DNA of 64,000 nucleotides from an uncultured Gammaproteobacteria bacterium (GCA_964536725.1 CAZHYJ010000001.1:53018-117017), one strand, 5' to 3'. Positions 9,484 through 26,063 are shown, numbered from the stretch's first letter. The notes: generated from the letters alone by a model not told the origin. Program-made: numbers and translations.

Positions 9484-9510
9484 TATAATTTAATTTTAAT
9501 AATAAATAAA

Positions 9511-10250: not shown

Positions 10251-10262
10251 ATTATTACCATC

Positions 10263-10334: not shown

Positions 10335-10548
10335 GTAAAGAGTCTCGTCTTTACTCAAAGGTTTGGTTAGTTTGGTCATTTTAAGTGAAAAATTTTTCAC
10401 TCATTCGGTATATCGGTCGTTTGGTCGGTCGCCCATAATCTCTGCTAAATTTTATTTTATATCGTTTTAGCCAGCGCTATGGGTGCGCCCTCATACGATA
10501 AGGTTCAAAGTCCTGATCTATTTCTTTGTTAGAAATAAGTCGGGGCTT

Positions 10549-10812: not shown

Positions 10813-10814
10813 AT

Positions 10815-11000
10815 TTATGTATTATTTTTTGGAGTTAAGCTATGTTTATTATGTTCTGCTTTGGTTATGGGTTGAAAAACTAACTCAACAAGCCGGAGAA
10901 GTTTGATCCCGATTTCACACGCTTCTTTCTTGGTTGTTTCTTTGCCATGTCGTTTGCAAAGAGTTTGAAATTCTAGGATTTCGTCCTCGGACAAGATCAT
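10815..11000 (-). CDS. Hypothetical small protein
   Basis: ORF only. Tightly spaced with its neighbours on the same strand. Confidence 0.3.
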   Translation of the reverse strand: MILSEDEILEFQTLCKRHGKETTKKEACEIGIKLLRLVELVFQPITKAEHNKHSLTPKNNT

Positions 11001-11082
11001 AATTAAAAATCACACTGGGTTATAGTGTGATTATATATGACTTAATTTTGAGTAGTGTGACGATAACTGGCACCAATTAAAA

Positions 11083-11856: not shown

Positions 11857-11883
11857 ATGGTAATTTTAAAAATTATACCTTTG

Positions 11884-11912
11884 TTGACTTGAGGGTAAAT
11901 AAGCTGTAATAT
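11884..11912 (+). promoter_or_regulatory. Promoter (TTGACT-17-TAATAT) reading into the structured RNA region and the first cassette
   Basis: The hexamers are seen directly. Confidence 0.45.
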
Positions 11913-12024
11913 TATGATATTATAATTTAGTATATATTAGCTTAACTACAAAGACAAATTACTAATTACAATACCTAACCCCTAGAGACTTCTGGCGATT
12001 CTTTTCTAGGATATGGTAATCAAA

Positions 12025-12137
12025 CCCTACGCGAATAAAGATGGTCTTCTGACCAGCACTTATTCGCGTAGGTTCACTCCCGAAAGGGGGCGAGGCAGGT
12101 CCGAAAGGATTTGTCGCTGTGTCGGGAGGCCTTTTTT
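12025..12137 (+). ncRNA. Candidate structured RNA: a 14-bp hairpin, then a helix with GAAA tetraloop carrying the SRP-RNA-like motif CAGGUCCGAAAGGA, then GCCUUUUUU
   Basis: The local sequence is GC-rich. Paired arms are CCCTACGCGAATAA/TTATTCGCGTAGG and CTCCCGA/TCGGGAG. A 10-nt direct repeat CCTACGCGAA lies at 12026 and 12167. SRP RNA identity is a guess. Confidence 0.25.
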
Positions 12138-12180
12138 GTTCTCTCGGCGAGCCCTAATTATTAAATCCTACGCGAAAAAT

Positions 12181-12903
12181 ATGAAGAAATATCTTCTAAT
12201 TTTATTCTTGGTAGCAATCATGTTTCCCTCGGTAGCTTTTGCTTCTTGGTGGAATCCTTTTTCTTGGAAAATTTTTAATTCCTCTCACAAAAAAGAAGTA
12301 GTGCTACAGGCACAGGCGGTTAATAATAAACCAGTAGTTAGTCCAACGGTAGAAAACAAAAAACTACAAAATCAAAATTTAAATTTAGAAAAAAAACCAA
12401 AAGAAATCGCTAATGATGAATGGTATAATGTTACAATTTTAACTCCTCCGAACAGAAAATCAGATGATCCACCTGGGGGAATGAAGTTTGAGGTTAAACT
12501 TAAAAATCTAAATGTAACCCCGTTTATTACAAATCTAGGTATCTGTGGATGTACTCTTTCTGATCTGAAAGGGAAAACCTACAGAACTGAATTTTCCGGT
12601 GAAGGTAGATTAAAAAAGGCTTTATTACCAGGAGAGGAAGCCAGCTTAAATTTTTTTAGTACGTTCAGTCATAGAGAATTTGTTAAAAATGGTGAAGTTG
12701 AGTGTCGCGGGGAAAATACTTTAGATTTTATTATGTTGGATTGGAGTAAAAATATAGTTAAGTGTATATATAATCAATCCGGTGAGTGTGCATGTGAAGA
12801 TCTTGGCCCAATGCATGTTGTGAATTGTGATTTCAGTATTTCAACAGATGGCAAGCAAGCTTCTTGCTGGGGCAAATATCCGACGACAGTAAAAATAGAT
12901 TAG
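12181..12903 (+). CDS. Secreted hypothetical protein (signal peptide MKKYLLILFLVAIMFPSVAFA)
   Basis: The ORF is open from 12013, but the N-terminal 56 codons overlap the structured RNA. The likely start is M12181. Confidence 0.5.
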   Translation: MKKYLLILFLVAIMFPSVAFASWWNPFSWKIFNSSHKKEVVLQAQAVNNKPVVSPTVENKKLQNQNLNLEKKPKEIANDEWYNVTILTPPNRKSDDPPGGMKFEVKLKNLNVTPFITNLGICGCTLSDLKGKTYRTEFSGEGRLKKALLPGEEASLNFFSTFSHREFVKNGEVECRGENTLDFIMLDWSKNIVKCIYNQSGECACEDLGPMHVVNCDFSISTDGKQASCWGKYPTTVKID

Positions 12904-12928
12904 GATTTATCCAAATTGCACCAAAATT

Positions 12929-13903
12929 ATGGATGTTAAACAAATCAATGAGTACGCTGAAAAATTGTGTAGTGTTATTAAACTCTATTACCTAAAGGAT
13001 TATTGTGATAATGATAAAAACTGGTTTAGTGCCTGCCAATTATCAATGCGTAATTTTGTTTTGTCTCGTAATGGGTGGCTTAAAAGTGATAAATCTGAAG
13101 ATACTTTGGTATTTGCTGGCAAACACCACTTAACGGTAAATATACTCTACAGCGGCTCACCGGGTGAGCTCATGCTAAATACAGCAATCGGTATTGCCAA
13201 AGCAGAGTTAATTGATAATTTTAACACCAATGGAAAAAATACGCTTGAAGACACTGTAACAAACATTGAAAAATGTGTTAGAGGTCAGGATTGGATAATA
13301 CCATTTGTGCGTAATAAACATTTTACCCAAAACAATAATAAAAATATGAACAAACACACCTCTATTCTTCGTTGGCTCTCAATAATACCAGTGGTTTTTA
13401 CAATTGTTTATTTATCGGATTGGATTGTAAGATTTATTTTATGGTTTTTGCGTTTACCAATAATTATATTTGAAAAGATTTTTGGTTTTGGTTCCGGCCC
13501 AATTGGAAAATTGTTTGATAATATAACAAATTTTCTTTTTGGACTTAATAGTATTGGCACTTTGACCGTAATTTTTTCTGGTCTACTAACAATGTCAGCA
13601 ATTGTTTATCTTTTGGCCATTATTATACCTAAAGACAATAAATCTACCGCACGAACATTGGCAATAATTTTATTGACTTTTTTCGCTATTAGTTTAGTTG
13701 CCACTTTTTTATCTAACAGAATGACAGGAGAAGTCATACTATATACAATCGTTTTAACAACGGGAGCTATTTTGGGGTGGAATTCAATTAAAAAAGAGAC
13801 AGAAAAAGAAAGGGAAAAACATGAGTATCTGGTTCAAAAATATATTAAGCGTATTTTTATTTTTACAACTCTGTTTACGGTATTTTTGTTATTTTTTTCT
13901 TGA
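12929..13903 (+). CDS. Hypothetical protein with a soluble N-domain and a C-terminal multi-TM region
   Basis: ORF. Several hydrophobic helices lie in the C-terminal half. Confidence 0.5.
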   Translation: MDVKQINEYAEKLCSVIKLYYLKDYCDNDKNWFSACQLSMRNFVLSRNGWLKSDKSEDTLVFAGKHHLTVNILYSGSPGELMLNTAIGIAKAELIDNFNTNGKNTLEDTVTNIEKCVRGQDWIIPFVRNKHFTQNNNKNMNKHTSILRWLSIIPVVFTIVYLSDWIVRFILWFLRLPIIIFEKIFGFGSGPIGKLFDNITNFLFGLNSIGTLTVIFSGLLTMSAIVYLLAIIIPKDNKSTARTLAIILLTFFAISLVATFLSNRMTGEVILYTIVLTTGAILGWNSIKKETEKEREKHEYLVQKYIKRIFIFTTLFTVFLLFFS

Positions 13904-13953
13904 GATAAGGTAGGTTCATTATTTGGAGTGTGTTATAGTGGTACATTAACTTT

Positions 13954-14445
13954 ATGAAAGGTAAGCACGAAAAATATATAGTATTATTCTTTTTCGGCGT
14001 TGTCGCAATAGCTGGTATTGTTATTTATAACAACAATAAAATAAACAGCTTTTCAAATTCACTTACCGTAAACGCACAAGCCAATAATAAAGCAGTAGAA
14101 CAACAAGTAAATAATGGCTGGGAAGACTGTGAAAATTATAAAGATATAGAAATTTTTAAAAAACCAAAACAGATTGTCTGGTTAGCCAAAATGAATGGTT
14201 GTCTAGAGAGTTGCCAAGGAGGGTCTTTTACCAGTATAGAAGCAGGAGTTGAATACCCAAGGTTTGCCGCCTATCTACCAGATGGCGAAAAAATACCCGA
14301 GGAGTATAAGGATAAAAATGATCTAGTTTTAAAGATAGTCGGCGAATGGATCGGCATTGGCGACGATTATTACAATACCGTTTTTAGTGGTCAATGCGTG
14401 CCTATAATTACAATTAAAAGCGTTACACCGGCAGCAAACATTTGA
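13954..14445 (+). CDS. Hypothetical membrane-anchored protein
   Basis: N-terminal TM helix; Cys-containing ectodomain. Confidence 0.45.
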   Translation: MKGKHEKYIVLFFFGVVAIAGIVIYNNNKINSFSNSLTVNAQANNKAVEQQVNNGWEDCENYKDIEIFKKPKQIVWLAKMNGCLESCQGGSFTSIEAGVEYPRFAAYLPDGEKIPEEYKDKNDLVLKIVGEWIGIGDDYYNTVFSGQCVPIITIKSVTPAANI

Positions 14446-14491
14446 TAGATTTGGATATCTGTATAATCGTAGTAACTAAAGCCTAAAAAAT

Positions 14492-14785
14492 GTGAAAAAA
14501 ATATTTCTCTATATATTTTGGACGATGATGCTAATATTTATCGCGGTAGCGCTAATTTATGGGTTTATAACTTATTCCATCTTTAAGGTAGATTCAAGTG
14601 GGCTGATTTATGATGGTCTTGGCAGACAACTTTATGAAGCGCCTCTTTGGGCGAAGTTTTTATTATTGAACGAACACCGGTGGCCTGGTTTATTTTGGAC
14701 AATATTTGATAGAGCAGCATGTGTTTGTTTTGGCAGTTTGGCATATATAATGCATAAACTTGCAACAAAAATGAGCATTGAATAA
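14492..14785 (+). CDS. Hypothetical small membrane protein
   Basis: Two predicted TM helices. Confidence 0.4.
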   Translation: MKKIFLYIFWTMMLIFIAVALIYGFITYSIFKVDSSGLIYDGLGRQLYEAPLWAKFLLLNEHRWPGLFWTIFDRAACVCFGSLAYIMHKLATKMSIE

Positions 14786-14803
14786 AAATTTGTATCAAGT
14801 ACT

Positions 14804-15289
14804 ATGCCCATCCTCTCAACGTTTTACACCATAGTAATTCCAATTGAAAACTTAAAAAGAGTCTTAACTGATGAGGAATTACAAAAAGCCTTGGCCGAAA
14901 AGAATTATCTGACCATGGTTAGGTTTGATGATAATTTATATAGTGAATCCACAATGGGCCCTTATGATAATGAAATTGTTATTAAGTATTGGGAAAGCAA
15001 GGGTTTAATTCCGACAGAAATAGTTAATGGAGAAGAGCGTTGGAAAGATCTGTGTCTGGTGGCTGCACCCGATAATCAGCCGACAGCACCTTGTGATTGG
15101 GTTGAAATCTTCTCTGTTGATGAATATAACAGCTATATTAACTTGAAAGGAAAACCAAGAGATCTTCTAGTAAAACAAACATCTTCGGTTGAAGAATTTG
15201 CGAAAGCATTAAAATACACGAAACAAGAATTGCAGCAACTCCTTCACAACAGGCCTATAACAAAAAAAGTCTGTTTTAGAGATTATTGA
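14804..15289 (+). CDS. Hypothetical cytoplasmic protein
   Basis: ORF only. Confidence 0.45.
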   Translation: MPILSTFYTIVIPIENLKRVLTDEELQKALAEKNYLTMVRFDDNLYSESTMGPYDNEIVIKYWESKGLIPTEIVNGEERWKDLCLVAAPDNQPTAPCDWVEIFSVDEYNSYINLKGKPRDLLVKQTSSVEEFAKALKYTKQELQQLLHNRPITKKVCFRDY

Positions 15290-15353
15290 GTGTCTTCTAA
15301 ATTAGGTTGACTTACCCATGTTGTTAGGCTAACATAAAGCCGTAAAACACTTT

Positions 15354-15749
15354 ATGAAAAAGGCCTATCTAACTTTTCTATTTTTATTCATTTTTCTTCC
15401 ATCGGTAACCTTGGCCCACCCCGGACGCACGGATTCTTCTGGTTGCCATACTTGTCGCACAAATTGTGCTAAATGGGGGCTTTCTACGGGCGAATATCAT
15501 TGTCATAGGGCAAAGACACTCCCGCAGCCAAAAGAGCCCATTAAAAGCCATTTTAGCGAGACTGGTGGGTATATCACGCCGGCACCGGAGTATAAACAAC
15601 CTGCCACTAATATTAAAAAGGCAGTTACGACAACCGCCGAAGTTAAGCCGGTAGTAAAACAGGTTGAAGTTAAATCAACTGCTAAACAAGCAGAGGTTAA
15701 AGTGAGCGAATCGTGGTTTACTAAGTTGGTTAGATTTTTGTTTAAATAA
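15354..15749 (+). CDS. Secreted protein with a Cys/His motif (..GRTDSSGCHTCRTNCAKWGLSTGEYHCH..) and a Lys/Val-rich repetitive tail
   Basis: Signal peptide; GxCHxC...YHCH metal-binding-like motif. Confidence 0.45.
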   Translation: MKKAYLTFLFLFIFLPSVTLAHPGRTDSSGCHTCRTNCAKWGLSTGEYHCHRAKTLPQPKEPIKSHFSETGGYITPAPEYKQPATNIKKAVTTTAEVKPVVKQVEVKSTAKQAEVKVSESWFTKLVRFLFK

Positions 15750-15750
15750 T

Positions 15751-16482
15751 ATGGAAAAAATTAGCCTTATAGCACAAGTATTCTTAGTTTTAATAACTAT
15801 AGCGGGCTGGTTTGCCGTCTACTACCTAAATTTAAAACAACAACGGAAAAATTTGGAAGATAACGCAAAATATAGGGTTTATGAAAAATTTTGGTCGTCA
15901 AGAGGACTTATATATAGCACACATAATCAATTAAGTAGCCAAATATTTGTGGGCCCGCCATTTATTCTAATGGATTCCACAAAAATTCTTGGGCAAGTCA
16001 CGAACAGGCAGGAAGATGTGTGGAAAGGACAACAGAACGCTATACAGATCTTTTTTGAATATCGGAATAAATTAGCGTCGTTAAATGAAAATTTTAATGA
16101 CACATATCTACAATTTTGGAGAGATGTTGAAATGTGGTTACATGTAATGCCAGACCTTGAACAATCGGCAAAGATTCTTTTTTCTGAATATACTATTACA
16201 AAAGATTTAGTTTACAAACATATTAGTTATTTACAGATTCTTGACGCTCAAAAATGGGAGACATTTAATCGCAACGATATCAAAGAAAGAGCAGAGACGG
16301 TATGGGGTAGTATGTCTAACCTCAGTGCTTACACGGAGGATTTTATGGCGTTAATTCACAACGAGCTTGTTGGTCCGTTATTTAAGTACAAAAAAACTGT
16401 CAGGGTCCCAATGGATCAGAGATATAAAGTGTTAACTAAAGATGGTTTGAAAATTATTGATAGTGCACATAGCATAAAATGA
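15751..16482 (+). CDS. Hypothetical protein with an N-terminal TM helix
   Basis: ORF only. Confidence 0.45.
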   Translation: MEKISLIAQVFLVLITIAGWFAVYYLNLKQQRKNLEDNAKYRVYEKFWSSRGLIYSTHNQLSSQIFVGPPFILMDSTKILGQVTNRQEDVWKGQQNAIQIFFEYRNKLASLNENFNDTYLQFWRDVEMWLHVMPDLEQSAKILFSEYTITKDLVYKHISYLQILDAQKWETFNRNDIKERAETVWGSMSNLSAYTEDFMALIHNELVGPLFKYKKTVRVPMDQRYKVLTKDGLKIIDSAHSIK

Positions 16483-16710
16483 TGATTAAAAGTTATCAAT
16501 ACAAAACTTCGTTTGAGTAGTGGTTATTTGGCACCATTTTTGCATGATGGATGATGGTGTTGCTTTAATGTAAAAAGGGTTGTATACTATAGATAGTGAA
16601 TATTCTTCAATTTTACATGATGTGTTATGTGGTGGGTTCTTTTTAGTGAGTAGGCTTTATAAATATTGACATTTTTTAGTAATTGTGTTTAAATGTTATA
16701 CTAAACTTAT

Positions 16711-17121
16711 ATGGGGAATTTGTCACCACTACAACATAGAATCAACGTAATATTAGCTAATCTCAGAGTGAAATTATTTCCGAGTAATAATTTGATAAAA
16801 GAGGTGCATGTTTGTTGTAACCAAAAATTACCAAAGGATGTTAAGGTGATTTGGAAAAGAGAAGATGATGGTTTTATAGTTGGCCATGTTAATGTAGATG
16901 GTTATGAGTTTACTACCCAAGGTAAAAATGCTAAAGATTTTATAAACATGGTAAATGATGCCATCTACGCTATTTACGAAATCCCCCCACAGTATATTCC
17001 TTATCTTGGTGGTTATCAAAGATATTTTCCTAAACCAGATCAGCTAGAACTGTTAAAAGATAAAAGCATTACAAATTCAACTCTTGGTTTCTATCAAAAC
17101 CAACATTGTCCAGCATCTTAA
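16711..17121 (+). CDS. hicB: HicB-like antitoxin (RNase H-like fold N-domain)
   Basis: ..WKREDDGFIVGHVNVDGYEFTTQGKNAKDFINMVNDAIYAIYE.. matches the HicB N-terminal pattern. It directly precedes the HicA-like gene. Confidence 0.5.
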   Translation: MGNLSPLQHRINVILANLRVKLFPSNNLIKEVHVCCNQKLPKDVKVIWKREDDGFIVGHVNVDGYEFTTQGKNAKDFINMVNDAIYAIYEIPPQYIPYLGGYQRYFPKPDQLELLKDKSITNSTLGFYQNQHCPAS

Positions 17122-17125
17122 GAAT

Positions 17126-17377
17126 ATGGGTGAATTTGCAGATGTAAAAAGAAAGAAAATTTTAAAGCTGCTGAAAAAGTTAGCTCAAATAAATGGCTTT
17201 ACAATCACTACTGGAGGTAATCATCAATGGGTAATTAGGTATACGAGCTGGCAGAGACCTTTCCCAATCCCATTTAAACAAAATAAGTTAAAAAAATGTT
17301 ATATTGAGGATCTTGCAAAGCTGGTCATTGCAACTGGAACATGCACAGAAGAAGTTTTTAAGGAATGGATAGGGTAA
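17126..17377 (+). CDS. hicA: HicA-like mRNA-interferase toxin
   Basis: ..KKILKLLKKLAQINGFTITTGGNHQWVIRYTSWQRPFPIPFKQNKL..DLAKL.. matches the HicA/YcfA pattern. The start is 4 nt after the hicB stop. Confidence 0.55.
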   Translation: MGEFADVKRKKILKLLKKLAQINGFTITTGGNHQWVIRYTSWQRPFPIPFKQNKLKKCYIEDLAKLVIATGTCTEEVFKEWIG

Positions 17378-17437
17378 AATAAAAATAAAATACACCTATT
17401 TTGTGAGTGTATTTTTTAATTTTGTATAAAAAATATA

Positions 17438-17590
17438 GTTCTAACATCCTCTACTAAGGAGCTCACTTTTCGTAAAACACCAAAACTCTGCTAAGTCTGG
17501 CAGAGTTTTTGGTTCTGATATTTGGCATAAGGTACATATATTTACTACCCCTTTGGAGAAAAAATGGCAAGAGTAGAACCGATTGAAAAA
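17438..17590 (+). repeat. Cassette-boundary repeat, copy 1 (long form): GTTCTAACATCCTCT..AAGGAGCTCA box, then hairpin AAAACTCTGC/GCAGAGTTTT with a T-run
   Basis: Near-identical over about 135 nt to the copy at 19598. It contains a tiny SD-ATG ORF (MARVEPIEK..). Confidence 0.6.
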
Positions 17591-17619
17591 GGATTATTTT
17601 TTTGGTATAGTTAATCATA

Positions 17620-18480
17620 ATGACTACTATTTTGAACCCCTGTTATTTTAACCTTTTTATGTATAGCATTCTTTTTCCGTTAATTTTGGTCTTTGTTATT
17701 TATTTTTTGGTAAAAGAATACAAAAGATACAGGTGGCCAAAGGTTTTTTCAAGAAAAATTACAAAAGAGCTGGGGAAACAGTTTGATAAATTGTGGAAAG
17801 CCAAAGATGACGGCCTCCTGGATTTGAAAATTTTTGATTCAGCCAAAAGAGTGTTTGAAAAATATTCTATTTACTTTTCTTCTTCTTTGGAATGGACACC
17901 ACTTCTTAAGAATGACGAAGGCCCAATCGACCCCGACCAGGCTGTGATTTTACGAAAGGAAATGGATAATTATTGGGTCATGGAAAAAAGTGTTATTTGC
18001 GATAATCATGTTTATAAATTTGAAGAAAAGCCCGATGGCGTTTTTATGCTTTTTAGGGATGGAGAATTAATAGGTGAAGTTAAAAGTGGAATTACGGATA
18101 GTAATAAAGTTTGTTTTATAAATCCACCAGACCCTAAATGTTTTTTTAATTCAACGCCATCTTGGGGAGAAGTTTTTGTCTGGAAAGATAACTATATTAT
18201 TAAAAGCTATACAGAGAATAGTGCCACCTTTAAAATCAATAATGACTTTTTAGAACTTCCAAAATCATGGGATGGAAAAATGAAAGCTCATGCTTTTGTT
18301 TTGGATAAAGATGGAGTTGTGGAATCTGCTGTTTTTGAAATCAAAGAAACATTAAATCCCCCGATTCCGCTGGATAATATTTATTGGTGCAAGTATCTTG
18401 GAAATGGAAAATTATCTCCACCAACATTGATTATTTCACAGGCTCATTTGGAAAGCGCGAGTATAAATGAGGTCAATTAA
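17620..18480 (+). CDS. Hypothetical protein with an N-terminal TM segment
   Basis: ORF only. Confidence 0.45.
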   Translation: MTTILNPCYFNLFMYSILFPLILVFVIYFLVKEYKRYRWPKVFSRKITKELGKQFDKLWKAKDDGLLDLKIFDSAKRVFEKYSIYFSSSLEWTPLLKNDEGPIDPDQAVILRKEMDNYWVMEKSVICDNHVYKFEEKPDGVFMLFRDGELIGEVKSGITDSNKVCFINPPDPKCFFNSTPSWGEVFVWKDNYIIKSYTENSATFKINNDFLELPKSWDGKMKAHAFVLDKDGVVESAVFEIKETLNPPIPLDNIYWCKYLGNGKLSPPTLIISQAHLESASINEVN

Positions 18481-18515
18481 ATTTATAGGTAGAAACCAAT
18501 TTATTTTGGTAAACC

Positions 18516-18577
18516 GTTCTAACATCCTCTATCAAGGAGCTCGCCGTAAACTTCGCTTAAACAGCGGGGTTTTTTGT
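18516..18577 (+). repeat. Cassette-boundary repeat, copy 2 (short form): conserved box, then G-U-containing hairpin AAACUUCGC/GCGGGGUUU with a T-run
   Basis: It shares the box and AAACTTCGCTTAAACAGCGGGGTT with the copies at 21124 and 22214. Confidence 0.6.
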
Positions 18578-18612
18578 TATACCCACAAGAAGAGTCGAAC
18601 TAAAACAAAAAA

Positions 18613-18638
18613 CACTCAGTAATTCTGAGAGTTTTTTA
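18613..18638 (+). terminator. Hairpin CTCAG-TAATT-CTGAG followed by AGTTTTTT
   Basis: Seen directly. Confidence 0.4.
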
Positions 18639-18790
18639 TTCCTCAATCACTTCTATAAATAAAAATGATAATCGGAGGGGAGGTCAAGACTTGCGTCACG
18701 ACCCCCGTTGCGAGTGCGTTCGTCAAACCTTGCGGTCTTCAGAACAGCACTGACACAGTTCCCCTCCGAGCGCGCCGGCCGTGTGACCGA

Positions 18791-19336
18791 CTACGCCGGC
18801 TTATCGGCCGACTTCTGCGCGCGCATGACCCGCACGTAGCCGAGCACGTCGGCCCAGCTCGAGACGAAGGCCGGGCCCATCACGTTCTCGTCGTGGACGA
18901 GGCCGTTCTGGGTCCAGAACTCGATCTCGGCGGCGTTGTTGTCGATGACGCCGGGGTCGTGGGGCTCGCGCGGGGCGCTGGGGCCGGGGAAGCTGGTGTA
19001 GAGCTGCCACGACGTGCCGTCGTCCGAGATGCCCGCGATGACCGTGAAGAGGGACGTCGGCTGCTTCTCGATCCCGACGAGGACGTGGCTCGGCACGTCG
19101 CGGCCCTTGCGGAACGCGAAGTACATCTGCCCGTTGTCCACGACGGGGAGGCAGCCGTTGAGGCCGACGATGCGCCCCATGTCGATGGTCGTCAGCAGGA
19201 ACCCCCCGCTCTCGGGCATGGTCACCATGCCGATCGCCTCCTCGAGGAGGGCCATCGCCTCGGGGTGCGCCTCGAGGTGCTTCTGGGTCTGGTCGGACAC
19301 GATGACCTTCTTGCCGCACTTGCTCTGGAATTCCAT
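18791..19336 (-). CDS. Hypothetical protein on a strongly GC-rich (foreign-composition) segment
   Basis: Of three overlapping long ORFs in this segment, only this frame has a balanced amino-acid composition. It also has a GGAGG Shine-Dalgarno 6 nt before the ATG. The segment, about 18.66-19.44 kb, is by eye roughly two-thirds G+C against AT-rich flanks. Confidence 0.55.
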   Translation of the reverse strand: MEFQSKCGKKVIVSDQTQKHLEAHPEAMALLEEAIGMVTMPESGGFLLTTIDMGRIVGLNGCLPVVDNGQMYFAFRKGRDVPSHVLVGIEKQPTSLFTVIAGISDDGTSWQLYTSFPGPSAPREPHDPGVIDNNAAEIEFWTQNGLVHDENVMGPAFVSSWADVLGYVRVMRAQKSADKPA

Positions 19337-19597
19337 CGGAAAACCTCCATTGTGGCCGGATTGGTTGCCGGCACTTGGTTCACTACCCGCCCTAAGAGCG
19401 CGGAATACTTAACGCCAGACTGACGTAAAATACACCGCGTTTTAGTGCAGATGATGTAAGGGAACTGTGTCTTGTAAAGAACAGCGTTCCATTATTAGGA
19501 ACCGAATGGTATAGCATAAAAAGGGATTTTTGTCAAGATTAAGGCTAAAAAATGGCTAATTTAACTGTTTGCACAAACTTCTCTATTTATCAAAGCA

Positions 19598-19731
19598 GTT
19601 CTAACATCATCTACTAAGCAGCTCAGATTTTCAAAAACCTCAAAACTCTGCTAAATCTGGCAGAGTTTTTGGTTCTGATATTTACTACCCCCTTTGGAGA
19701 AAAAATGGCAAGAGTAGAACCGATTGAAAAA
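19598..19731 (+). repeat. Cassette-boundary repeat, copy 3 (long form)
   Basis: Near-identical to copy 1, including the hairpin AAAACTCTGC/GCAGAGTTTT and the tiny ORF MARVEPIEK... Confidence 0.6.
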
Positions 19732-19892
19732 ACTGTAAATATCTGGTAATCTAATATGGTATATTATTTATATGGACAAACAAGAAGAGATTAAAAAAAT
19801 TAGAAAATTAGTTCAGAATAGAATTAAACTAAAAAAAGAACTGGCTAGCTTGCCAGAATTTAAGGAACGATTAAAAAAAGCAAAAGAAAAAT

Positions 19893-21068
19893 ATGAGGCC
19901 AAACAATGAGGGCATATCAATCGGTGCAACAGAACTTTCGCGTGAAAGGGTCCTTGAAATGTCACCAAAAGAATTGGTTGATTATTTTACTCACCTTGAA
20001 GAATCTGGGGGATTAGAAGCATACTTGCAAAGAGCTTCCAAGGATGATGCTTTGGTTGCTATGTTTAGTTATTGGGAAAAGTGGTTGACAAATGATCAGC
20101 GCGCGATGGTTGATGATATTGTAAGACAGAAAAAAGAGTTATATCCTGGAAACAGTGAGTCATTACCACTAGAATTGGAAAAAAGGTTTACTGGAGACGA
20201 ACTTGAAATTATTTTTTCAAATTTATTAGCTATACAACTTACTTTTGGTTGCTCCAAAGGTTGTCCGTTTTGCGGTTTTGATGCGGTTCCTGGCGTAAGA
20301 GAACACATACCTTATTCTCAATTGGCTAATATGTTTCAGAGGTTTGGTAAAGAGATTGGGGAAAGTAAGCCGTTGTTGTATTATGCTTCAGAACCAACCG
20401 ATTACCTCGACGAAGATAATACATACATGGATGTGCATCAGTTGGCAGTAGAGTATGCTAAGTATAAGCCACATGTAACGAGTAAAAATACTGATACTGA
20501 GTGGGTTGATTTTTTATCTAAAAAAGTAAATAAACCAAGAATAAGCTTGTTTGGTGTTCCAGAAGAATCAATATTAAATTTGGAAAGCTTGTCTGCAATC
20601 ACAGGTATTGAATTAGGGGGAAGACAAAAAAAACACTTTGAGGGTTTGGGAGTTTCAAGACAAAAGACAGAAGCGCCATTTAGTGTTGGGATAGGCTGTG
20701 GAAGTGGTATCTTAATTACACCACGAGGTTTGTATAATACTTTAACTTTATCAAGGACCAGCGATAGGTTTCCTCAGGGTATAGCAATTCAACCGTTTGA
20801 AAAAGAAGATGATAATTTTGATATAAAAATAGGGTCAGATGTTGTTGAAATAATGAAGAATACTTTAATAGGCAAGTTGCGTGCCATTACTGGTTTTTTC
20901 TTCGTAAGACAGCATGGTGTAAAAGTGTATGTAAAAGTTAATGACGCTGGTAAAGTTGTTGATTTTTACAAACAAAACGAACCTTGGAACCGGGCTGATC
21001 ACCAGCCATTTTTTGTGGAACTTGTTGATAGGCTCTTAGCGTCTGAGAAAGTAGCTGGTGTAAAATAA
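19893..21068 (+). CDS. Hypothetical protein with a CxxxCxxC motif (..TFGCSKGCPFCGFD..), possible radical SAM-like enzyme
   Basis: Only the CxxxCxxC motif was noted; the remaining radical-SAM signature was not checked. Confidence 0.4.
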   Translation: MRPNNEGISIGATELSRERVLEMSPKELVDYFTHLEESGGLEAYLQRASKDDALVAMFSYWEKWLTNDQRAMVDDIVRQKKELYPGNSESLPLELEKRFTGDELEIIFSNLLAIQLTFGCSKGCPFCGFDAVPGVREHIPYSQLANMFQRFGKEIGESKPLLYYASEPTDYLDEDNTYMDVHQLAVEYAKYKPHVTSKNTDTEWVDFLSKKVNKPRISLFGVPEESILNLESLSAITGIELGGRQKKHFEGLGVSRQKTEAPFSVGIGCGSGILITPRGLYNTLTLSRTSDRFPQGIAIQPFEKEDDNFDIKIGSDVVEIMKNTLIGKLRAITGFFFVRQHGVKVYVKVNDAGKVVDFYKQNEPWNRADHQPFFVELVDRLLASEKVAGVK

Positions 21069-21123
21069 ATAAATTTATTTTTATAAAAAATAGACAGATA
21101 ACAAATTAATTTATAATTAAATT

Positions 21124-21189
21124 GGTTCTAATATCCTCTGCCAAGGAGCTCAGATAAAAACTTCGCTTAAACAGTGGAGTTTTTTCTTA
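21124..21189 (+). repeat. Cassette-boundary repeat, copy 4 (short form)
   Basis: GGTTCTAATATCCTCTGCCAAGGAGCTCAGATAAAAACTTCGCTTAAACAGTGGAGTTTTTT. Confidence 0.6.
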
Positions 21190-21327
21190 ATATGGTATTA
21201 GAGAAGAGTCATATTTTATTGCTTTAAACCGTGAAAAAAGTAGTTTTTCTATATATTTTCACGGTTATATTGACAAAATAGTGAAAATATGCTATAATTG
21301 TATTAGATTCTACATTTAAGTTAGTAT

Positions 21328-22200
21328 ATGGCTAAAATATCTAATGTTTTCAATAAAATAAACGACTTACGTAAACGTTATTATTTAGCGGCTGTTGGCA
21401 GACAATCACTTTTGAAATTAATTAGCGAAACTGAAGTAGCTGAACAAGTTTACAATTCTAATGCTATAGAAAACAGCACTTTGTCCCTTGAAGAAACAGA
21501 AAAAATTCTACTGCAAATAGATCTGGACAGATATATTTCTGAGCGAGAAATTTTTGAAGCTAAAAATTTAGCACGTGTGGTCTCATATATAGATACCAAA
21601 GCTAAAGAAAAAGAACTCGATTTGGATGTTATTTTGATGTTACACAAAATGTTAATTAGTAATATTAGAGAAGACGTAGCGGGACGTTTTAGAAAAGAAA
21701 ATGAGTGGGTGCGAGTTGGTAATCATATAGCAGTTGATCCTAAAGAAATAATTGGTCGCTTAGAAAAAATGCTAGCTGAGTACAATGCCGAGAGCCAAGA
21801 AAATGTTATAAAAAGAATAGCACGTTTGCATTTAGCTTTTGAATACGTTCATCCTTTTGTCGATGGTAATGGTCGAATTGGTAGAGTGTTAAATAATTAT
21901 TTATTGATCAGAGAAGGGTTTGTGCCGATAAATATTAAATTTATTGATAGAAAAATGTATTATGAAGCATTCAAAGAGTTTGACACCAATGAAGCGACGG
22001 GTGTAATGGAGGAGATCGTCGGCCGTGCTTTGACCAATAGTTATCATAAGAGGTTGGCATATTTAGAGAGTAAAAATATTATTACCCTTAAAGAGTACGC
22101 ACAAAAAAATAAAATATCACATTCAAACGCTATCAACAAGGCTACTCGTCAAACTATTGAAGCTTTTTTGGAAAAGGGAATTTGGAAAATTGGAGAATAA
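21328..22200 (+). CDS. Fic/Doc-family protein (putative AMPylase)
   Basis: The canonical Fic motif HPFVDGNGRIGR is present. Confidence 0.8.
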   Translation: MAKISNVFNKINDLRKRYYLAAVGRQSLLKLISETEVAEQVYNSNAIENSTLSLEETEKILLQIDLDRYISEREIFEAKNLARVVSYIDTKAKEKELDLDVILMLHKMLISNIREDVAGRFRKENEWVRVGNHIAVDPKEIIGRLEKMLAEYNAESQENVIKRIARLHLAFEYVHPFVDGNGRIGRVLNNYLLIREGFVPINIKFIDRKMYYEAFKEFDTNEATGVMEEIVGRALTNSYHKRLAYLESKNIITLKEYAQKNKISHSNAINKATRQTIEAFLEKGIWKIGE

Positions 22201-22213
22201 TTTGTTGTAAGCA

Positions 22214-22278
22214 GGTTCTAACATCCTCCACCAAGCAGCTCACCGTAAAACTTCGCTTAAACAGCGGGGTTCTTTGTT
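22214..22278 (+). repeat. Cassette-boundary repeat, copy 5 (short form)
   Basis: GGTTCTAACATCCTCCACCAAGCAGCTCACCGTAAAACTTCGCTTAAACAGCGGGGTTCTTTG. Confidence 0.6.
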
Positions 22279-22333
22279 TGCTTAAAGATTTTTAATACTG
22301 TATACTTAAAACAGTATTTTTGTTTTAATTATT

Positions 22334-22687
22334 TTGATAATATTACTTAATTGTATGTCAGAGAACAATATTGTTCATAACATTGACTTGGACAAGCCCG
22401 TAACACCAGCTATGGCGCGTGATGCAATGGTGGAGTGTTTTTATGAAGCACATTGTACGGACACAGGTTTAGACGAAGGTGATCCTAATGTTAATAGAGA
22501 ATATATTTTGGATGTTATCAAAAAAGCTACTACTGATATTGGTGAAGATTTTGAAAACCCTACCAAAAAATCACTTTTAAAGACAGTGGAAAAATTAAAA
22601 GAGTTTGCTAAAAAATTTCGAGATCAATCTGTAATTCAGAAGCATGCCGCTGAGATGGTTAAAATAATAGAAAAAATAAAAGAGTAA
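22334..22687 (+). CDS. Hypothetical acidic protein
   Basis: ORF only. Confidence 0.4.
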   Translation: MIILLNCMSENNIVHNIDLDKPVTPAMARDAMVECFYEAHCTDTGLDEGDPNVNREYILDVIKKATTDIGEDFENPTKKSLLKTVEKLKEFAKKFRDQSVIQKHAAEMVKIIEKIKE

Positions 22688-22692
22688 CTAGG

Positions 22693-24441
22693 TTATTTAA
22701 AAAGCGATATAATAAAACAGTTTTTGGTAACGTGGGTTGACAAAGTATGAAATGCGAGTATAATAGGGGATAGATTACATCGCGGGGTAGAGCAACCAGG
22801 CAGCTCGCAAGGCCCATAACCTTGAGGTTCCCGGTTCAAATCCGGGCCCCGCAACAATGTTGGACTCTGGTCATATAAAGTGGCCAGAGTCCTTTTTGTT
22901 AAAGGGTCTTCCGGAGGTTCGAAGTTTTTTTTAATCTCTTTTACTTCTTTGGACGCCTCTTCTAAAAGCACGAGCGGTTTTTGCGCTTGGAAAAGCACTT
23001 TTCCGTCTTTAAGTAATAGGTTCGAACCGAGACCCGACAGAATACTGCGTTTTGTAAATATATTATTTTCTTGGAACTTTTCTCTGGCAATTTGGGCGAA
23101 TGAGAAAATCTTTCCCGCCCTTTCTTTAGACTTATCCTCTTGGTTATTTTTACCAGATAATATATATTCCAAATTTTCTTTCTCTTTATTAATTTCAGCC
23201 TTTTTTTCTTTGGCTACCGTTTCAGATATCTCGCCGTTAATACGCATGTCCACTATAGTATCTAGTTTTTTGAGACAAGATGCTAGGGATTTTTCTAAGT
23301 TGGATACTATAATATTTTGATCGTTTTCTTTTTGTTGAGTTTCGTTTTTTAATTTTTCCAAAGCCCAAACACAGAAATCATTCGGTATCTCTATTCTATT
23401 CAGGATGTCCGTAATTTGCTCCTCGATTTCTTTTTCTTGGACATACCTCTGTGAGCAGTTGGGATTCTTTTGTTTGGTACAATGATAATATGTATATACA
23501 TGGGTGTTACCATTTTTTTGTTTCTTAACTCTTAATTCAGCGGTTATCATTGCTCCACATTCGCCACAACGTAATGGCCCCCGAAAAGCGAAATCGAATT
23601 TTTTCGGTCGCGGTTTATTTCGACCAGATATAATATCTTGTATTTGATCAAATTCTTCTTTGGTTATCATCGCGGGATGCTTTCCGTCATACCAGTTTCC
23701 ACTACCTTGGGGGTATTCATATCTACCATAATAGAACGGCAGAGTGAACATGCGGTAAAAAGTACTACGACCGATCGGTTTTCCGTTATCCATACGGAAT
23801 CCCCACTTATGAGTTATTACACGCCATAATTCTTGGACAGTGTACTGTCCAGTTAACATCTCTCGGAACGCTCTTTGGATGATGGGGAAGCGCTCTTTAT
23901 CTATCAAGATACACCTTGATCCGCCGGTGAGATTTGGAGTGTTTAAGTACCCTGTGGGGGCGTGTGAGGGATATATACCCATTTCTGCTTTAGTACGTAA
24001 TCCTCTGGCCGTATTGTGGCGTAGGTCGATAATGTATTGGTTAGCCATGCCTAACTCTACAAACATCATTAGGACGTTGTCGGTGGGGTAATAATCGCGA
24101 TCATAAGCCCGTATGTGTTGGATAATACCTTGTTGGAGCATCCAGTTGATAATACCGCCGTCAACAGGGTTTCTGGCCAAACGATCTAGTTTCCAACAGA
24201 CGATGCCGTTGGCCTCACCTTTTTTTATTCGTTCCACCATTTCATTAAACTCAGGGCGTGCACCAGGTTCTTTGGCCGAGTGGGCTTCGGTGAATGTCTT
24301 AACGACTTTAAGGCCGTCACGTCCAACGAGTTTTTTCATTTCACTAATTTGGGAATCGATAGAGAGGGCTTGTCGTTCTTCGCCCTCACTACTTTTTCTG
24401 CAGTAGAGAAAATATCTTAGTGGTTTTTTGTTGCTTCGCAT
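22693..24441 (-). CDS. Large serine recombinase, paralog of the one at 7895-9483
   Basis: ..YCRKSSEGEERQALSIDSQ.., ..IVCWKLDRLARNPVDGG.., and a Cys cluster (..CGECGAM...HCTKQKNPNC..). The ORF is open from 24483; the likely start is MRSNKKP at 24441. The C-terminal roughly 55 codons read through the tRNA-fMet antisense. Confidence 0.8.
   Translation of the reverse strand: MRSNKKPLRYFLYCRKSSEGEERQALSIDSQISEMKKLVGRDGLKVVKTFTEAHSAKEPGARPEFNEMVERIKKGEANGIVCWKLDRLARNPVDGGIINWMLQQGIIQHIRAYDRDYYPTDNVLMMFVELGMANQYIIDLRHNTARGLRTKAEMGIYPSHAPTGYLNTPNLTGGSRCILIDKERFPIIQRAFREMLTGQYTVQELWRVITHKWGFRMDNGKPIGRSTFYRMFTLPFYYGRYEYPQGSGNWYDGKHPAMITKEEFDQIQDIISGRNKPRPKKFDFAFRGPLRCGECGAMITAELRVKKQKNGNTHVYTYYHCTKQKNPNCSQRYVQEKEIEEQITDILNRIEIPNDFCVWALEKLKNETQQKENDQNIIVSNLEKSLASCLKKLDTIVDMRINGEISETVAKEKKAEINKEKENLEYILSGKNNQEDKSKERAGKIFSFAQIAREKFQENNIFTKRSILSGLGSNLLLKDGKVLFQAQKPLVLLEEASKEVKEIKKNFEPPEDPLTKRTLATLYDQSPTLLRGPDLNREPQGYGPCELPGCSTPRCNLSPIILAFHTLSTHVTKNCFIISLFK
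22781..22854 (+). tRNA. Initiator tRNA-fMet (anticodon CAT)
   Basis: Near-identical to E. coli tRNA-fMet: CGCGGGG acceptor with a C1-A72 mismatch; anticodon loop CCCATAA; T-arm CCCGG-TTCAAAT-CCGGG. It lies entirely antisense inside the 3' end of the recombinase-2 ORF. Confidence 0.8.
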
Positions 24442-24512
24442 ATAAGAATAATTAAAAATTCCATTAAACCACGGTAATAACATGCCTTACAATATGGCGT
24501 CAATAATTATAA

Positions 24513-26060: not shown

Positions 26061-26063
26061 ATA

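What the first reader, a model, noticed from the sequence alone, without database searches (positions are those of the whole stretch)
11884..22700. String of single-gene cassettes separated by five copies of a conserved boundary repeat, between two tRNA-linked serine recombinases
Five intergenic elements (17438, 18516, 19598, 21124, 22214) share a 30-nt box, GGTTCTAACATCCTCTNCNAAG(G/C)AGCTCA. Each is followed by a terminator hairpin, either AAAACTCTGC/GCAGAGTTTT or AAACUUCGC/GCGGGGUUU. Each delimits one ORF: HicB-HicA, a membrane protein, a GC-rich foreign gene, a CxxxCxxC protein, Fic and an acidic protein. The layout is cassette-array-like, as in integrons or CALINs. The block is flanked by tRNA-Gly plus recombinase on the left and tRNA-fMet plus recombinase on the right. 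This could be an undescribed recombinase-serviced cassette system. It could equally be a conserved 3'-UTR / terminator module spread by duplication.
Basis: partly seen in the sequence, partly recalled or inferred. Interest (0 to 1): 0.8.

Follow-up and report, generated by a model that had tools for sequence, protein, structure and literature searches.

The report
Serine-recombinase attachment arms bounding gene cassettes
The five repeats are the element-side half of the attachment site of a ~10-kb mobile element that a large serine recombinase inserts at a glycine tRNA gene in candidate-phyla-radiation bacteria, and extra copies of that half-site fence off single accessory genes that appear to be picked up and dropped by the same recombinase.

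Summary
In detail: five same-strand copies of a ~29-nt box, each followed by a hairpin; none is expected by chance, and there are no others in the 64 kb. The box is not an integron attC or a generic terminator. It is the P arm of the attP site of large-serine-recombinase (LSR) elements that integrate at the 3' end of tRNA-Gly. In circular relatives (L013, L024-27) the box abuts the LSR 3' end, and the LSR reading frame runs through it (…WSSLVEDVRT…). A contig from the same population (L038) lacks window 7905-18542 exactly: tRNA-Gly(GCC) …GCTC is joined to the sequence after box 2. So LSR1, box 1, the 286-aa gene and box 2 form one 10.6-kb mobile unit, with a 4-nt core (GCTC). Boxes 3-5 bound a resident array without a recombinase (GC-rich gene, radical-SAM, Fic). 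Similar arrays occur on other CPR contigs (six boxes in L016). The right-hand recombinase belongs to a separate 8.1-kb element at tRNA-Met, absent in L014. Best model, partly inferred: choosing a different downstream box at excision deposits or captures cassettes. This is an LSR analogue of SCC composite islands and of cis-mobilizable element accretion. I rate it a new variant of a known kind.

The parts
7681..7753 (+). tRNA-Gly(TCC), unoccupied. Relatives of the element use this isoacceptor in other genomes.
   Evidence: ARAGORN and Rfam. L019, L020 and L031 show LSR elements at tRNA-Gly(TCC).
7832..7906 (+). tRNA-Gly(GCC). Its 3' half is the bacterial (B) arm of the attachment site. The attL junction lies at the core GCTC, 7901-7904. 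The CCA at 7904-7906 is supplied by the element.
   Evidence: The empty site in L038 reads ...CCCGCTC|GCCGTAAAC with no encoded CCA.
7905..18542 (.). Element E1, the mobile unit (about 10.6 kb). It comprises the P' hairpin, LSR1, plasmid-like genes, LOOT RNA, the putative 'HicBA' pair, inner box 1, the 286-aa cassette and outer box 2.
   Evidence: It is precisely absent from L038: L038 1-206 matches window 7699-7904 and L038 203-4481 matches window 18539-22817, with a 4-nt overlap. GC is 0.34 against 0.42 for the host. Two E1 proteins (the 296-aa and 161-aa ORFs) have homologues in L019's element, which is 10.7 kb and a similar size.
7895..9484 (-). LSR1, a large serine recombinase (529 aa, = P0001). 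When integrated it ends ...SHWSG*, using codons from the tRNA. In the circular form it would read on through box 2 (…SHWSSLIEDVRTVYQNK…).
   Evidence: Pfam finds Resolvase, Recombinase and Zn_ribbon_recom. For the family and its C-termini; for the tail translation.
7905..7945 (+). P' arm: CAATGTGAATAAACAGCTTGAAAAGAGCTGTTTTTTC. The hairpin doubles as a terminator for the tRNA and as LSR C-terminal codons.
   Evidence: It is homologous to the P' of L013/L031.
11972..12115 (+). LOOT RNA (RF03000) inside E1.
   Evidence: Rfam, 63.6 bits against a gathering score of 46.4. It is also present in the L019 and L020 elements.
17437..17465 (+). Box 1, the inner P-arm copy within E1.
   Evidence: It lies inside the segment missing from L038.
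17466..17595 (+). Flank F1 after box 1: a hairpin plus conserved sequence ending ...GAGTAGAACCGATTGAAAAA. The end carries a -35-like TTGAAA for the next gene.
   Evidence: Repeat families D2/D6, fold, promoter scan. The same module is in L003.
17620..18480 (+). 286-aa protein with no Pfam match. It is the cassette carried between box 1 and box 2.
   Evidence: The same gene is in L017.
18515..18543 (+). Box 2, the P arm actually used by E1 (attR). The core GCTC is at 18539-18542.
   Evidence: L038 breakpoint.
18543..18605 (+). Flank FA after box 2. It is the B' arm, i.e. the terminator that follows tRNA-Gly(GCC) in the empty site.
   Evidence: In L038, tRNA-Gly ...GCTC is directly followed by GCCGTAAACTTCGCTTAAACAGCGGGG.... 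The same type of flank occurs at the attR of L019, and a partly similar one at the attR of L031.
18791..19336 (-). GC-rich (67%) 181-aa gene. In the E1-free state this is the cassette nearest the tRNA.
   Evidence: Homologues reach at most 54% identity. The named ones are CPR, including a Magasanikbacteria protein found on 57% GC contigs. It is present in two independent assemblies, L017 and L038.
19597..19625 (+). Box 3.
19626..19735 (+). Second copy of flank F1.
   Evidence: 89% and 87% identity to the first copy.
19893..21068 (+). Radical-SAM protein (391 aa) cassette.
   Evidence: Pfam. The closest relatives, outside the near-identical copy P0134 from the same population, are at most 52% identical and mostly CPR.
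21124..21152 (+). Box 4.
21328..22200 (+). Fic/DOC protein cassette with a consensus promoter (TTGACA-17-TATAAT) at 21270-21298.
   Evidence: Pfam; promoter scan. Fic genes also sit in the arrays of L001 and L016.
22214..22242 (+). Box 5, followed by an FA-type hairpin (22243-22280).
22334..22687 (+). 117-aa acidic protein between box 5 and tRNA-Met. No box follows it, so its status as cassette or host gene is open.
   Evidence: It is present in L014 and L038.
22781..22855 (+). tRNA-Met, attachment site of the second element. The core CCCGCAACAA is at 22848-22857.
22858..30946 (.). Element E2 (about 8.1 kb), an independent LSR element that is not part of the array. Its own P arm, GTTCGAATGTCATCTAACACCCGCAACAA, is at 30918-30946.
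   Evidence: It is absent from L014, where the tRNA-Met site is empty. LSR2 Pfam; CHC2 primase finger.
22693..24483 (-). LSR2. The integrated ORF runs antisense through tRNA-Met. In the circular form the tail would be …LLRVLDDIRT…, homologous to the box-encoded tail.

Best explanation
The box is the element-side (P) arm of the attP site of a family of 7-11 kb plasmid-like elements found in Patescibacteria/CPR bacteria. A large serine recombinase (LSR) inserts these elements at the 3' end of tRNA-Gly. In the circle, attP reads box ...GGAGCTC|CA, then the P' hairpin, then the LSR 3' end. The LSR reading frame continues through the box. Recombination with attB (tRNA-Gly ...CCCGCTC| followed by the terminator B') across a 4-nt core gives two products. 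attL is tRNA|P'-LSR, which truncates the LSR to ...WSG*. attR is the box followed by the tRNA's old terminator. That is why every box is followed by a terminator hairpin.

In this window, 7905-18542 is one such unit. It carries two boxes, and box 2 is the arm it used. Boxes 3-5 bound a resident array of single genes without a recombinase. Each unit has the form 'B'-type flank - gene - box'.

Inferred mechanism: any downstream box|flank can act as the attR partner of attL. Excision at an inner box would leave a cassette next to the tRNA (deposit). Excision at a more distal box would carry cassettes away (capture). The flank left next to the tRNA would then serve as B' for the next integration, so the array would grow from the tRNA side.

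Shown: the identity of the box, the cores, the circular forms, and the movement of two-box composites. Inferred: individual cassette deposit and capture, and whether an excision factor is needed.
For: (1) Circle against integrated copy: L013 is a 10,215-bp circle (127-nt terminal overlap) and L031 is the same element integrated (99.9% identity over 10,254 nt). attP is box...GAGCTC|CATTGTGAAAAAAC. attL is tRNA-Gly(TCC)...CCCGCTC|CATTGTG. attR is box...GAGCTC|TAATACAAAAAACGG.
(2) This locus: L038 joins tRNA-Gly(GCC)...GCTC to the sequence after box 2, and so lacks window 7905-18538.
(3) A second circular element of 6.93 kb was assembled six times in circularly permuted form, with the box abutting the LSR 3' end.
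(4) Of the 120 listed LSR relatives, most end ...WSG/LSG (the reverse complement of the tRNA-Gly 3' end), and a few end WSSLVxDVRT or a looser variant of it.
(5) Box variation is about three times higher at the wobble positions of that frame: 0.18 against 0.06 across 31 boxes.
(6) In L019, one box lies 10.7 kb from an LSR at tRNA-Gly. In L011 and L012, tRNA-Gly(GCC) is followed by 1.4 kb of cargo without an LSR and then a box.
(7) E2 shows the same architecture at tRNA-Met, with a colinear P arm and a homologous encoded tail.
(8) Both composites that demonstrably move (E1, and L013/L031) contain an inner box plus a small cassette.
(9) Arrays of 2-6 boxes with one gene each occur in L016, L001, L003, L005, L008, L009 and L015. 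The cargo is accessory-type: Fic, GNAT, methyltransferase and His-phosphatase in those arrays, RelA_SpoT in the single-box locus L011, and a Gp49/HTH pair next to the L016 array.
(10) No LSR pseudogene fragments are found in the array. All cassettes differ in GC from the host. The unameliorated 56% GC cassette is the one nearest the tRNA in the E1-free state.
Against: No variant was found that differs by a single recombinase-less cassette, and no cassette-only circle was seen among the small contigs. Deposit and capture of individual cassettes is therefore inferred from the two-box composites, not observed. Canonical LSRs recombine only attP with attB unless a directionality factor is present, and none was identified here. 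The flank F1 is shared by cassettes carrying different genes and has a sharp right boundary. Crossover at GCTC alone does not explain this. The junctions in L016 are mosaics containing pseudo-tRNA-Gly fragments, some of them inverted, which points to a more complicated history. The half-site anatomy (spacing, P'/B' recognition) is read from sequence only.
Confidence: 0.78

Rival explanations
1. Passive relics. The boxes are attR scars of successive full-length LSR elements that integrated at the tRNA and then decayed by deletion. What is left is right-end cargo genes that are no longer mobile as cassettes. This corresponds to the three-step 'CIME' scenario without present-day cis-mobilization.
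For: The identity of the box as an att arm fits this reading equally well. No single-cassette polymorphism and no mini-circle was seen. Decay followed by accretion is the standard explanation for tandem islands (PMC5704250).
Against: No LSR or other backbone pseudogene fragments remain in the array. The junctions are box|B'-type flanks: FA is the demonstrated B' of the empty site. They are not box|P' with LSR 3' remnants. The same discrete flank modules (F1, FA) recur with sharp ends in different organisms and next to different genes. Each interval holds one intact gene, several with promoter-like sites. Mobile circles themselves carry an inner box plus a cassette.
Confidence: 0.17
2. An integron-like array or CALIN. 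The repeats would be attC sites recombined as folded single strands by a tyrosine integron integrase.
For: The layout is one gene per repeat. The repeat starts 0-60 nt after the stop codon. GTTCTAAC loosely resembles an attC core. The cargo is accessory-type.
Against: No tyrosine recombinase is found among the Pfam-scanned ORFs (every ORF of 85 aa or more between 7895 and 24483, plus three E2 ORFs). The 27-nt box is conserved in sequence and stays unpaired. Whole-site folds have z-scores of -0.6 to +0.1 for the FA type, and only the terminator hairpin forms. Rfam finds nothing. The breakpoints of real events lie at GCTC between the box and the hairpin and pair with a tRNA 3' end. At least two cassettes carry promoter-like sites of their own.
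Confidence: 0.02
3. A generic 3'-UTR/terminator module or a MITE-like repeat, spread by duplication and with no role in recombination.
For: The element always lies downstream of genes and carries an intrinsic-terminator hairpin. There is an inverted GGTTCTA/TAGAACC motif at the two ends of the longer modules.
Against: Only five copies are present in 64 kb, all in one array. Exact-pattern matches occur in just 3 of 185,579 species genomes with the stricter pattern and on 13 metagenome contigs with a looser one. The hairpin sequence varies freely while the box is conserved. The box is physically part of the LSR ORF in circles and varies like coding sequence. The natural insertion/deletion breakpoint lies at its 3' edge.
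Confidence: 0.03

Closest known systems
SCC / SCCmec composite islands of staphylococci (CcrAB/CcrC large serine recombinases)
   Same: Large serine recombinases insert elements at the 3' end of a conserved gene. Islands are tandem modules, many lacking a recombinase (ACME, COMER, pseudo-SCC). Modules are demarcated by short directly repeated att sequences. Either one module or the whole composite can excise as a circle (PMC7029739).
   Different: The target here is the tRNA-Gly 3' end, not rlmH/orfX. attP and attB share only 4 nt, so the repeats are not duplicated target cores but accumulated element-side arms (29 nt), all of attR type. Modules are about 1-kb single genes rather than 10-50 kb. 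The arm lies inside the recombinase ORF, so integration changes the protein's C-terminus. The hosts are CPR bacteria.
Accretion and cis-mobilization of CIMEs with ICEs/IMEs (ICESt1/ICESt3-type, Streptococcus; tyrosine recombinases)
   Same: Tandem arrays form at a tRNA or gene 3' end by site-specific recombination. Units without a recombinase keep their att sites and can be excised together with a functional neighbour, which leads to gene capture (PMC5704250).
   Different: In the classic CIME cases the enzyme is a tyrosine integrase and the core repeats are identical. Here it is a large serine recombinase with asymmetric arms. Units here are single genes with conserved B'-type left flanks, not decayed ICE backbones.
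Integron gene-cassette arrays / CALINs
   Same: There is one accessory gene per unit, with a recombination-site repeat directly after each gene. Growth probably occurs at one privileged end (attI in integrons, the tRNA here). Arrays can exist without an adjacent recombinase.
   Different: There is no IntI and no folded attC. The site is sequence-conserved rather than structure-conserved. At least some cassettes carry promoter-like sites of their own. The recombinase is carried on a mobile circle, not fixed next to the array.
Serine-integrase phage/ICE integration (phiC31, Bxb1, A118, TnpX/TndX type)
   Same: The domain architecture is Resolvase + Recombinase + Zn-ribbon. attP x attB gives attL and attR with a very short common core. 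The P arm is about 5 nt longer than the B arm between the GTTC motif and the core (29 against 24 nt, read). From my own recollection of LSR-DNA structural work, not checked here, this echoes the known attP/attB half-site offset.
   Different: attP lies within the 3' end of the integrase gene. Extra P arms are retained in tandem. The right half-sites (P' and B') are both terminator hairpins and resemble each other, which may relax the usual attP/attB discrimination. This last point is inference.

Membership tests
Large serine recombinase integrative element (attP/attB system) | A recombinase with an N-terminal resolvase catalytic domain plus recombinase and zinc-ribbon domains | tested here: met
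   Pfam finds PF00239, PF07508 and PF13408 in LSR1 and LSR2. There are 2,887 relatives at E<=1e-30; the named ones among the 120 listed are CPR.
Large serine recombinase integrative element (attP/attB system) | Occupied and empty sites differ by exactly the element, with a short common core at both junctions | tested here: met
   E1: window against L038, core GCTC. E2: window against L014, core CCCGCAACAA. L031 against L013.
Large serine recombinase integrative element (attP/attB system) | A circular form in which the two element ends are joined (attP) | tested here: met
   For relatives: L013 (127-nt overlap), L024-L027 (six permuted assemblies, four retrieved, 30-nt overlap) and L029 (101-nt overlap). 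Not observed for E1 itself.
Large serine recombinase integrative element (attP/attB system) | A recombination directionality factor for excision | not tested
   No candidate was identified. Small ORFs of unknown function are present in E1.
Large serine recombinase integrative element (attP/attB system) | Catalysis by the recombinase at these sites | not testable with these tools
   This needs an in vitro or heterologous recombination assay.
Integron / CALIN | An IntI-type tyrosine recombinase with attI and Pc next to the array (not required for a CALIN) | tested here: not met
   No tyrosine recombinase is found among the Pfam-scanned ORFs (every ORF of 85 aa or more between 7895 and 24483, plus three E2 ORFs). 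The only recombinases are serine type.
Integron / CALIN | attC sites: imperfect inverted repeats (R''/L''...L'/R') that fold into a single hairpin, conserved in structure but not in sequence | tested here: not met
   The box stays unpaired in DNA folds of either strand. z-scores are -0.6, -0.4, -0.9 and +0.1 for FA-type sites. The box is 84% identical per column across 27 sites from different organisms. A dedicated attC model (IntegronFinder/HattCI) was not available.
Integron / CALIN | Mostly promoterless cassettes read from a common promoter | tested here: not met
   A consensus promoter lies before the Fic gene and TTGAAA-17-TATAGT lies before the 286-aa gene. Every box is followed by a terminator-like hairpin, and four of the five are called by the scan. 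Promoter calls are consensus matches only.
SCC-like composite island (LSR-mobilized tandem modules) | Tandem modules, some without a recombinase, separated by directly repeated att sequences at the 3' end of a conserved gene | tested here: met
   There are five direct boxes downstream of tRNA-Gly, and units 3-5 have no recombinase.
SCC-like composite island (LSR-mobilized tandem modules) | Alternative att sites can be used, so that single modules or composites excise | tested here: inconclusive
   A two-box composite moves as one unit in two independent cases. Use of the other boxes was not observed.
SCC-like composite island (LSR-mobilized tandem modules) | Homology to Ccr recombinases and an rlmH target | tested here: not met
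   The target is tRNA-Gly. The named relatives of the LSR family among those listed are all CPR. No Ccr-specific comparison was run.

The most novel reading that the evidence does not exclude
CPR bacteria may possess a gene-capture platform that is functionally integron-like but is run by a mobile large serine recombinase. Under this reading, the tRNA-Gly 3' end plays the role of attI. Portable 'B'-flank - gene - P-arm' units play the role of cassettes. They are deposited next to the tRNA, or captured from it, according to which P arm is chosen at excision. Because attP lies inside the recombinase gene, integration swaps the enzyme's C-terminal tail (…WSSLVEDVRT… becomes …WSG*). This could act as a built-in switch of directionality or stability.
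Probability: 0.4. Interest if true: 0.85.

Novelty: new variant of a known kind. Interest (0 to 1): 0.66.

Why it matters
CPR/Patescibacteria have tiny genomes, and how they exchange genes is poorly understood. This locus shows a widespread, tRNA-Gly-specific serine-recombinase element family. For three elements both states or the circle were recovered from public assemblies: E1 and E2 occupied and empty, and L013/L031 circular and integrated. The element's attachment arm also fences off single accessory genes (Fic, GNAT, methyltransferase, radical-SAM and others) in arrays.

If the cassettes are deposited and captured as proposed, this would be a serine-recombinase route to integron-style gene accumulation. 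It would also offer natural recombinases with a defined 29-nt arm and a 4-nt core, and a testable case of an integrase whose C-terminus is rewritten by its own integration. It further gives a genomic context for the orphan LOOT RNA.

Tried and rejected
- **Rfam.** Gathering search on the whole window and E-value mode on 16400-22800: no family covers the box or its flanks.
- **attC-like folding of whole sites.** Only the terminator hairpin forms.
- **tRNA 3'-fragment idea for the box.** No copy of the tRNA-Gly or tRNA-Met 3' end exists elsewhere in the window. No significant tRNA-Gly remnant is found in the five window junctions, although L016 junctions do contain such fragments.
- **Viral contig scans.** The box, FA and F1 patterns gave zero hits.
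- **Exact look-ups.** The 548-aa LSR1 ORF and PNPase are not on record, so no further E1-empty contig was found that way.
- **Excised E1 in the protein collection.** The 90% cluster holds only 529-aa integrated-type products.
- **Cassette mini-circles.** None of the short contigs has a terminal overlap.
- **LSR pseudogene remnants in the array.** None was found beyond the box-encoded tails.
- **Cassette genes in other arrays at high identity.** The radical-SAM and GC-rich genes have relatives at only 54% identity or less, apart from near-identical copies from the same population. The GC-rich gene's homologue in Magasanikbacteria is not box-bounded.
- **HicA/HicB assignment.** No Pfam support even at E<=5.
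- **Literature.** No description of this system was found.
- **Symmetric half-site reading of the sites.** P' and B' show no clear inverted copy of the GTTC motif at the expected distance. I therefore do not claim a half-site model.

Full report
**1.
The 29-nt box occurs five times on the + strand, at 17437, 18515, 19597, 21124 and 22214. A profile built from 27 boxes finds only these five in the 64-kb window. The copies fall into two longer types. Boxes 1 and 3 share 87 nt plus a further ~60 nt; I call this flank F1. Boxes 2, 4 and 5 share ~65 nt; I call this flank FA. One gene lies between successive boxes:
- a 286-aa protein with no Pfam match;
- a 181-aa gene of 67% GC on the minus strand;
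- a radical-SAM protein;
- a Fic protein.

The HicB/HicA label is not supported by Pfam. Both flanking recombinases are large serine recombinases (LSRs), and their 3' ends overlap tRNA genes.

**2. The box occurs elsewhere and is tied to an LSR gene.**
Exact-pattern scans found the box in 3 of 185,579 species genomes (Saccharibacteria, Magasanikbacteria and one mis-binned MAG). A looser pattern found it on 13 metagenome contigs. The flanks were unrelated, and the box usually began 0-6 nt after a stop codon.

On L013 the box abuts the 3' end of an LSR gene that is 72% identical in DNA to LSR1. The LSR frame reads through the hairpin and the box (…FSQWSSLVEDVRT…). L013 has a 127-nt terminal overlap, so it is a 10,215-bp circle. 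A second relative was assembled six times as the same 6.93-kb circle in different permutations (four retrieved), again with the box next to the LSR 3' end.

Among the 120 listed LSR relatives, most end …WSG*/…LSG*, which is the reverse complement of the tRNA-Gly 3' end. A few end …WSSLVxDVRT… or a looser variant. Across 31 boxes in distinct contexts, the three most variable positions are wobble positions of this frame. Mean variability is 0.18 at wobble positions and 0.06 elsewhere. The box is therefore both a DNA site and the coding sequence for the tail of the excised-state recombinase.

**3. Three natural occupied/empty or circular/integrated pairs define the sites.**
(a) L031 is L013 integrated: 99.9% identity over 10,254 nt.
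- attP is box…GGAGCTC|CATTGTGAAAAAAC….
- attL is tRNA-Gly(TCC)…CCCGCTC|CATTGTG….
- attR is box…GGAGCTC|TAATACAAAAAACGG…, where the right part is the tRNA's own terminator.

(b) For this window, L038 comes from another sample of the same population. L038 positions 1-206 match window 7699-7904, and positions 203-4481 match window 18539-22817.
- tRNA-Gly(GCC)…CCCGCTC is joined directly to GCCGTAAACTTCGC…, the FA flank after box 2.
- Window 7905-18542 (10.6 kb) is therefore one inserted unit with a 4-nt core, GCTC.
- Box 2, not box 1, is its attR arm. Box 1 and the 286-aa gene ride inside it.
- FA is the B' arm, i.e. the tRNA terminator of the empty site.
- A k-mer assembly cannot create this join across a 4-nt overlap, so it is real.

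(c) L014 lacks window 22858-30936. The right-hand LSR thus belongs to a separate 8.1-kb element at tRNA-Met, with a 10-nt core. Its element arm, GTTCGAATGTCATCTAACACCCGCAACA, is colinear with the box (GTTC.AA..TC.TCTA). It encodes a homologous tail, LLRVLDDIRT. It has the same architecture but different specificity, and it plays no part in the array.

**4. What the five repeats are.**
Every 'box + terminator hairpin' is an attR-type junction: an element P arm, then the core, then a B'-type flank. In the E1-free state (L038) the order is: tRNA-Gly | FA - GC-rich gene - box 3 | F1 - radical-SAM - box 4 | FA - Fic - box 5 | FA - 117-aa gene - tRNA-Met.

This is a resident array of units without a recombinase, each of the form 'flank - gene - box'. 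No LSR pseudogene fragments remain in it. All units differ in GC from the host: 0.32-0.35 and 0.56, against 0.42. The unameliorated GC-rich unit is the one next to the tRNA.

Comparable arrays exist elsewhere. L016 has six boxes and five consecutive single-gene units: an unknown protein, a methyltransferase, Fic and two unknowns. There are three boxes in L001 and two each in L003, L005, L008, L009, L013/L031 and L015. In L011 and L012, tRNA-Gly(GCC) is followed by about 1.4 kb of cargo without an LSR and then a single box.

**5. Mechanism.**
*Shown.* LSR elements integrate at tRNA-Gly through a GCTC core. The box is their P arm. Two independent composites that carry an inner box and a cassette move as single units (E1, and L013/L031).

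*Inferred.* Because all boxes are equivalent P arms, attL could recombine with any downstream box|flank.
- Excision at an inner box would leave 'flank - gene - box' next to the tRNA (deposit).
- Excision at a more distal box would take resident cassettes away (capture). This would explain why mobile circles already contain an inner box.
- The flank left beside the tRNA would then serve as B' for the next integration. This would explain why discrete flank modules (F1, FA) are conserved across organisms with sharp ends.

P' and B' hairpins resemble each other in the L013/L031 pair. That similarity might relax the usual attP/attB discrimination. No directionality factor was identified.

*Against or open.*
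- No single-cassette polymorphism or cassette circle was found.
- F1 is linked to different genes, which a crossover at GCTC alone does not explain.
- L016 junctions are mosaics that include pseudo-tRNA-Gly pieces, some of them inverted.

**6. Rivals.**
- *Passive decay of tandem full-length elements* remains possible (about 0.17). It fits poorly with the absence of backbone remnants and with junctions of the box|B' type rather than the box|P' type.
- *Integron/CALIN* is rejected. There is no tyrosine integrase among the scanned ORFs, the box stays unpaired in folds, it is conserved in sequence rather than structure, and at least two cassettes have their own promoter-like sites.
- *Generic terminator or MITE* is rejected by the box's rarity, its confinement to the array, its coding-type variation and the position of the real breakpoints.

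**7. Comparison and novelty.**
The closest known systems are two.
- Staphylococcal SCC composite islands: an LSR, recombinase-less modules separated by att repeats, and excision of single modules or composites (PMC7029739).
- Accretion and cis-mobilization of CIMEs with ICEs/IMEs (PMC5704250).

This system differs in several ways:
- the target is tRNA-Gly;
- the host clade is CPR;
- the units are single genes of about 1 kb;
- attP and attB share only 4 nt, so the repeats are accumulated element arms rather than duplicated cores;
- attP lies inside the recombinase ORF, so integration rewrites the enzyme's C-terminus.

Literature searches found no description of it. I rate it a new variant of a known kind. 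It is of real interest to mobile-element and CPR specialists, and it has a clear read-mapping test and a clear biochemical test.

Noticed in passing
window 11972-12115 (+); L019 7055-7173 (-); L020 2473-2600 (-): The orphan LOOT RNA (RF03000) sits inside three tRNA-Gly LSR elements. In the window and in L019 it lies just upstream of homologous genes (the window 296-aa ORF, which appears to carry a signal peptide). This suggests LOOT is a component of this element family.
   Followed up: partly
window 7962-7974 and 22915-22923, compared with boxes and 30918-30926: A direct copy of the P-arm distal motif lies 58-59 nt inside each LSR gene, measured from the crossover. It is GGTTCTAAC in E1, L013 and L024, and GGTTCGAAG in E2. 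There it encodes the family-conserved (L/F)EP. The motif variant co-varies with that element's own P arm, so it may be an accessory DNA site.
   Followed up: partly
window 18668-19540: The GC-rich cassette has a low-GC sigma70-like promoter (TTGACA at 19531-19536, minus strand). A 5' leader of about 170 nt follows it. There is also a 12-nt perfect inverted repeat, GACACAGTTCCC (18752-18763) / GGGAACTGTGTC (19460-19471), that would pair the 5' and 3' UTRs of the mRNA. No Rfam family matches. The named protein relatives are in CPR, including high-GC Magasanikbacteria contigs (57% GC), where the gene is not box-bounded.
   Followed up: partly
window 7901-7906 compared with L038 200-210: The empty tRNA-Gly(GCC) gene does not encode CCA (…GCTCGCC…), whereas the integrated element supplies an encoded CCA (…GCTCCAA…). 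The element's P' hairpin also replaces the tRNA's terminator.
   Followed up: yes
window 22693-22855 (-): In the integrated state the LSR2 ORF continues antisense through the whole tRNA-Met gene and its promoter region. This adds about 55 host-encoded residues. The excised form would instead end …DQSPTLLRVLDDIRTCFRDRLR.
   Followed up: partly
L016 (oriented) junctions after boxes at 1207, 3118, 4540, 5025: The spacers between cassettes contain degenerate tRNA-Gly 3' fragments (…CTACCCGCTCCA), some of them inverted. They are followed by an L013-type P' hairpin without any LSR gene. These are mosaic att junctions that imply repeated recombination at the same core.
   Followed up: partly
L019 18922-19150 (+): There is a group I intron hit (RF00028, 87.9 bits) just after a tRNA-Ala gene in the host flank of a related element.
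   Followed up: no
L031 2071-4620; L029 1981-3820; L030 4227-5683: Related LSR circles and elements carry defence or addiction-type cargo: HigB-like/HTH-M78 pairs, a faint reverse-transcriptase hit, NgoPII-type restriction-modification, and DNA methylase plus Vsr.
   Followed up: no
window 8000-31000: The whole stretch between tRNA-Gly and the end of E2 is a low-GC island (0.28-0.39 against a host value of about 0.42). It is made of at least three independently acquired layers: E1, the resident cassette array and E2.
   Followed up: yes
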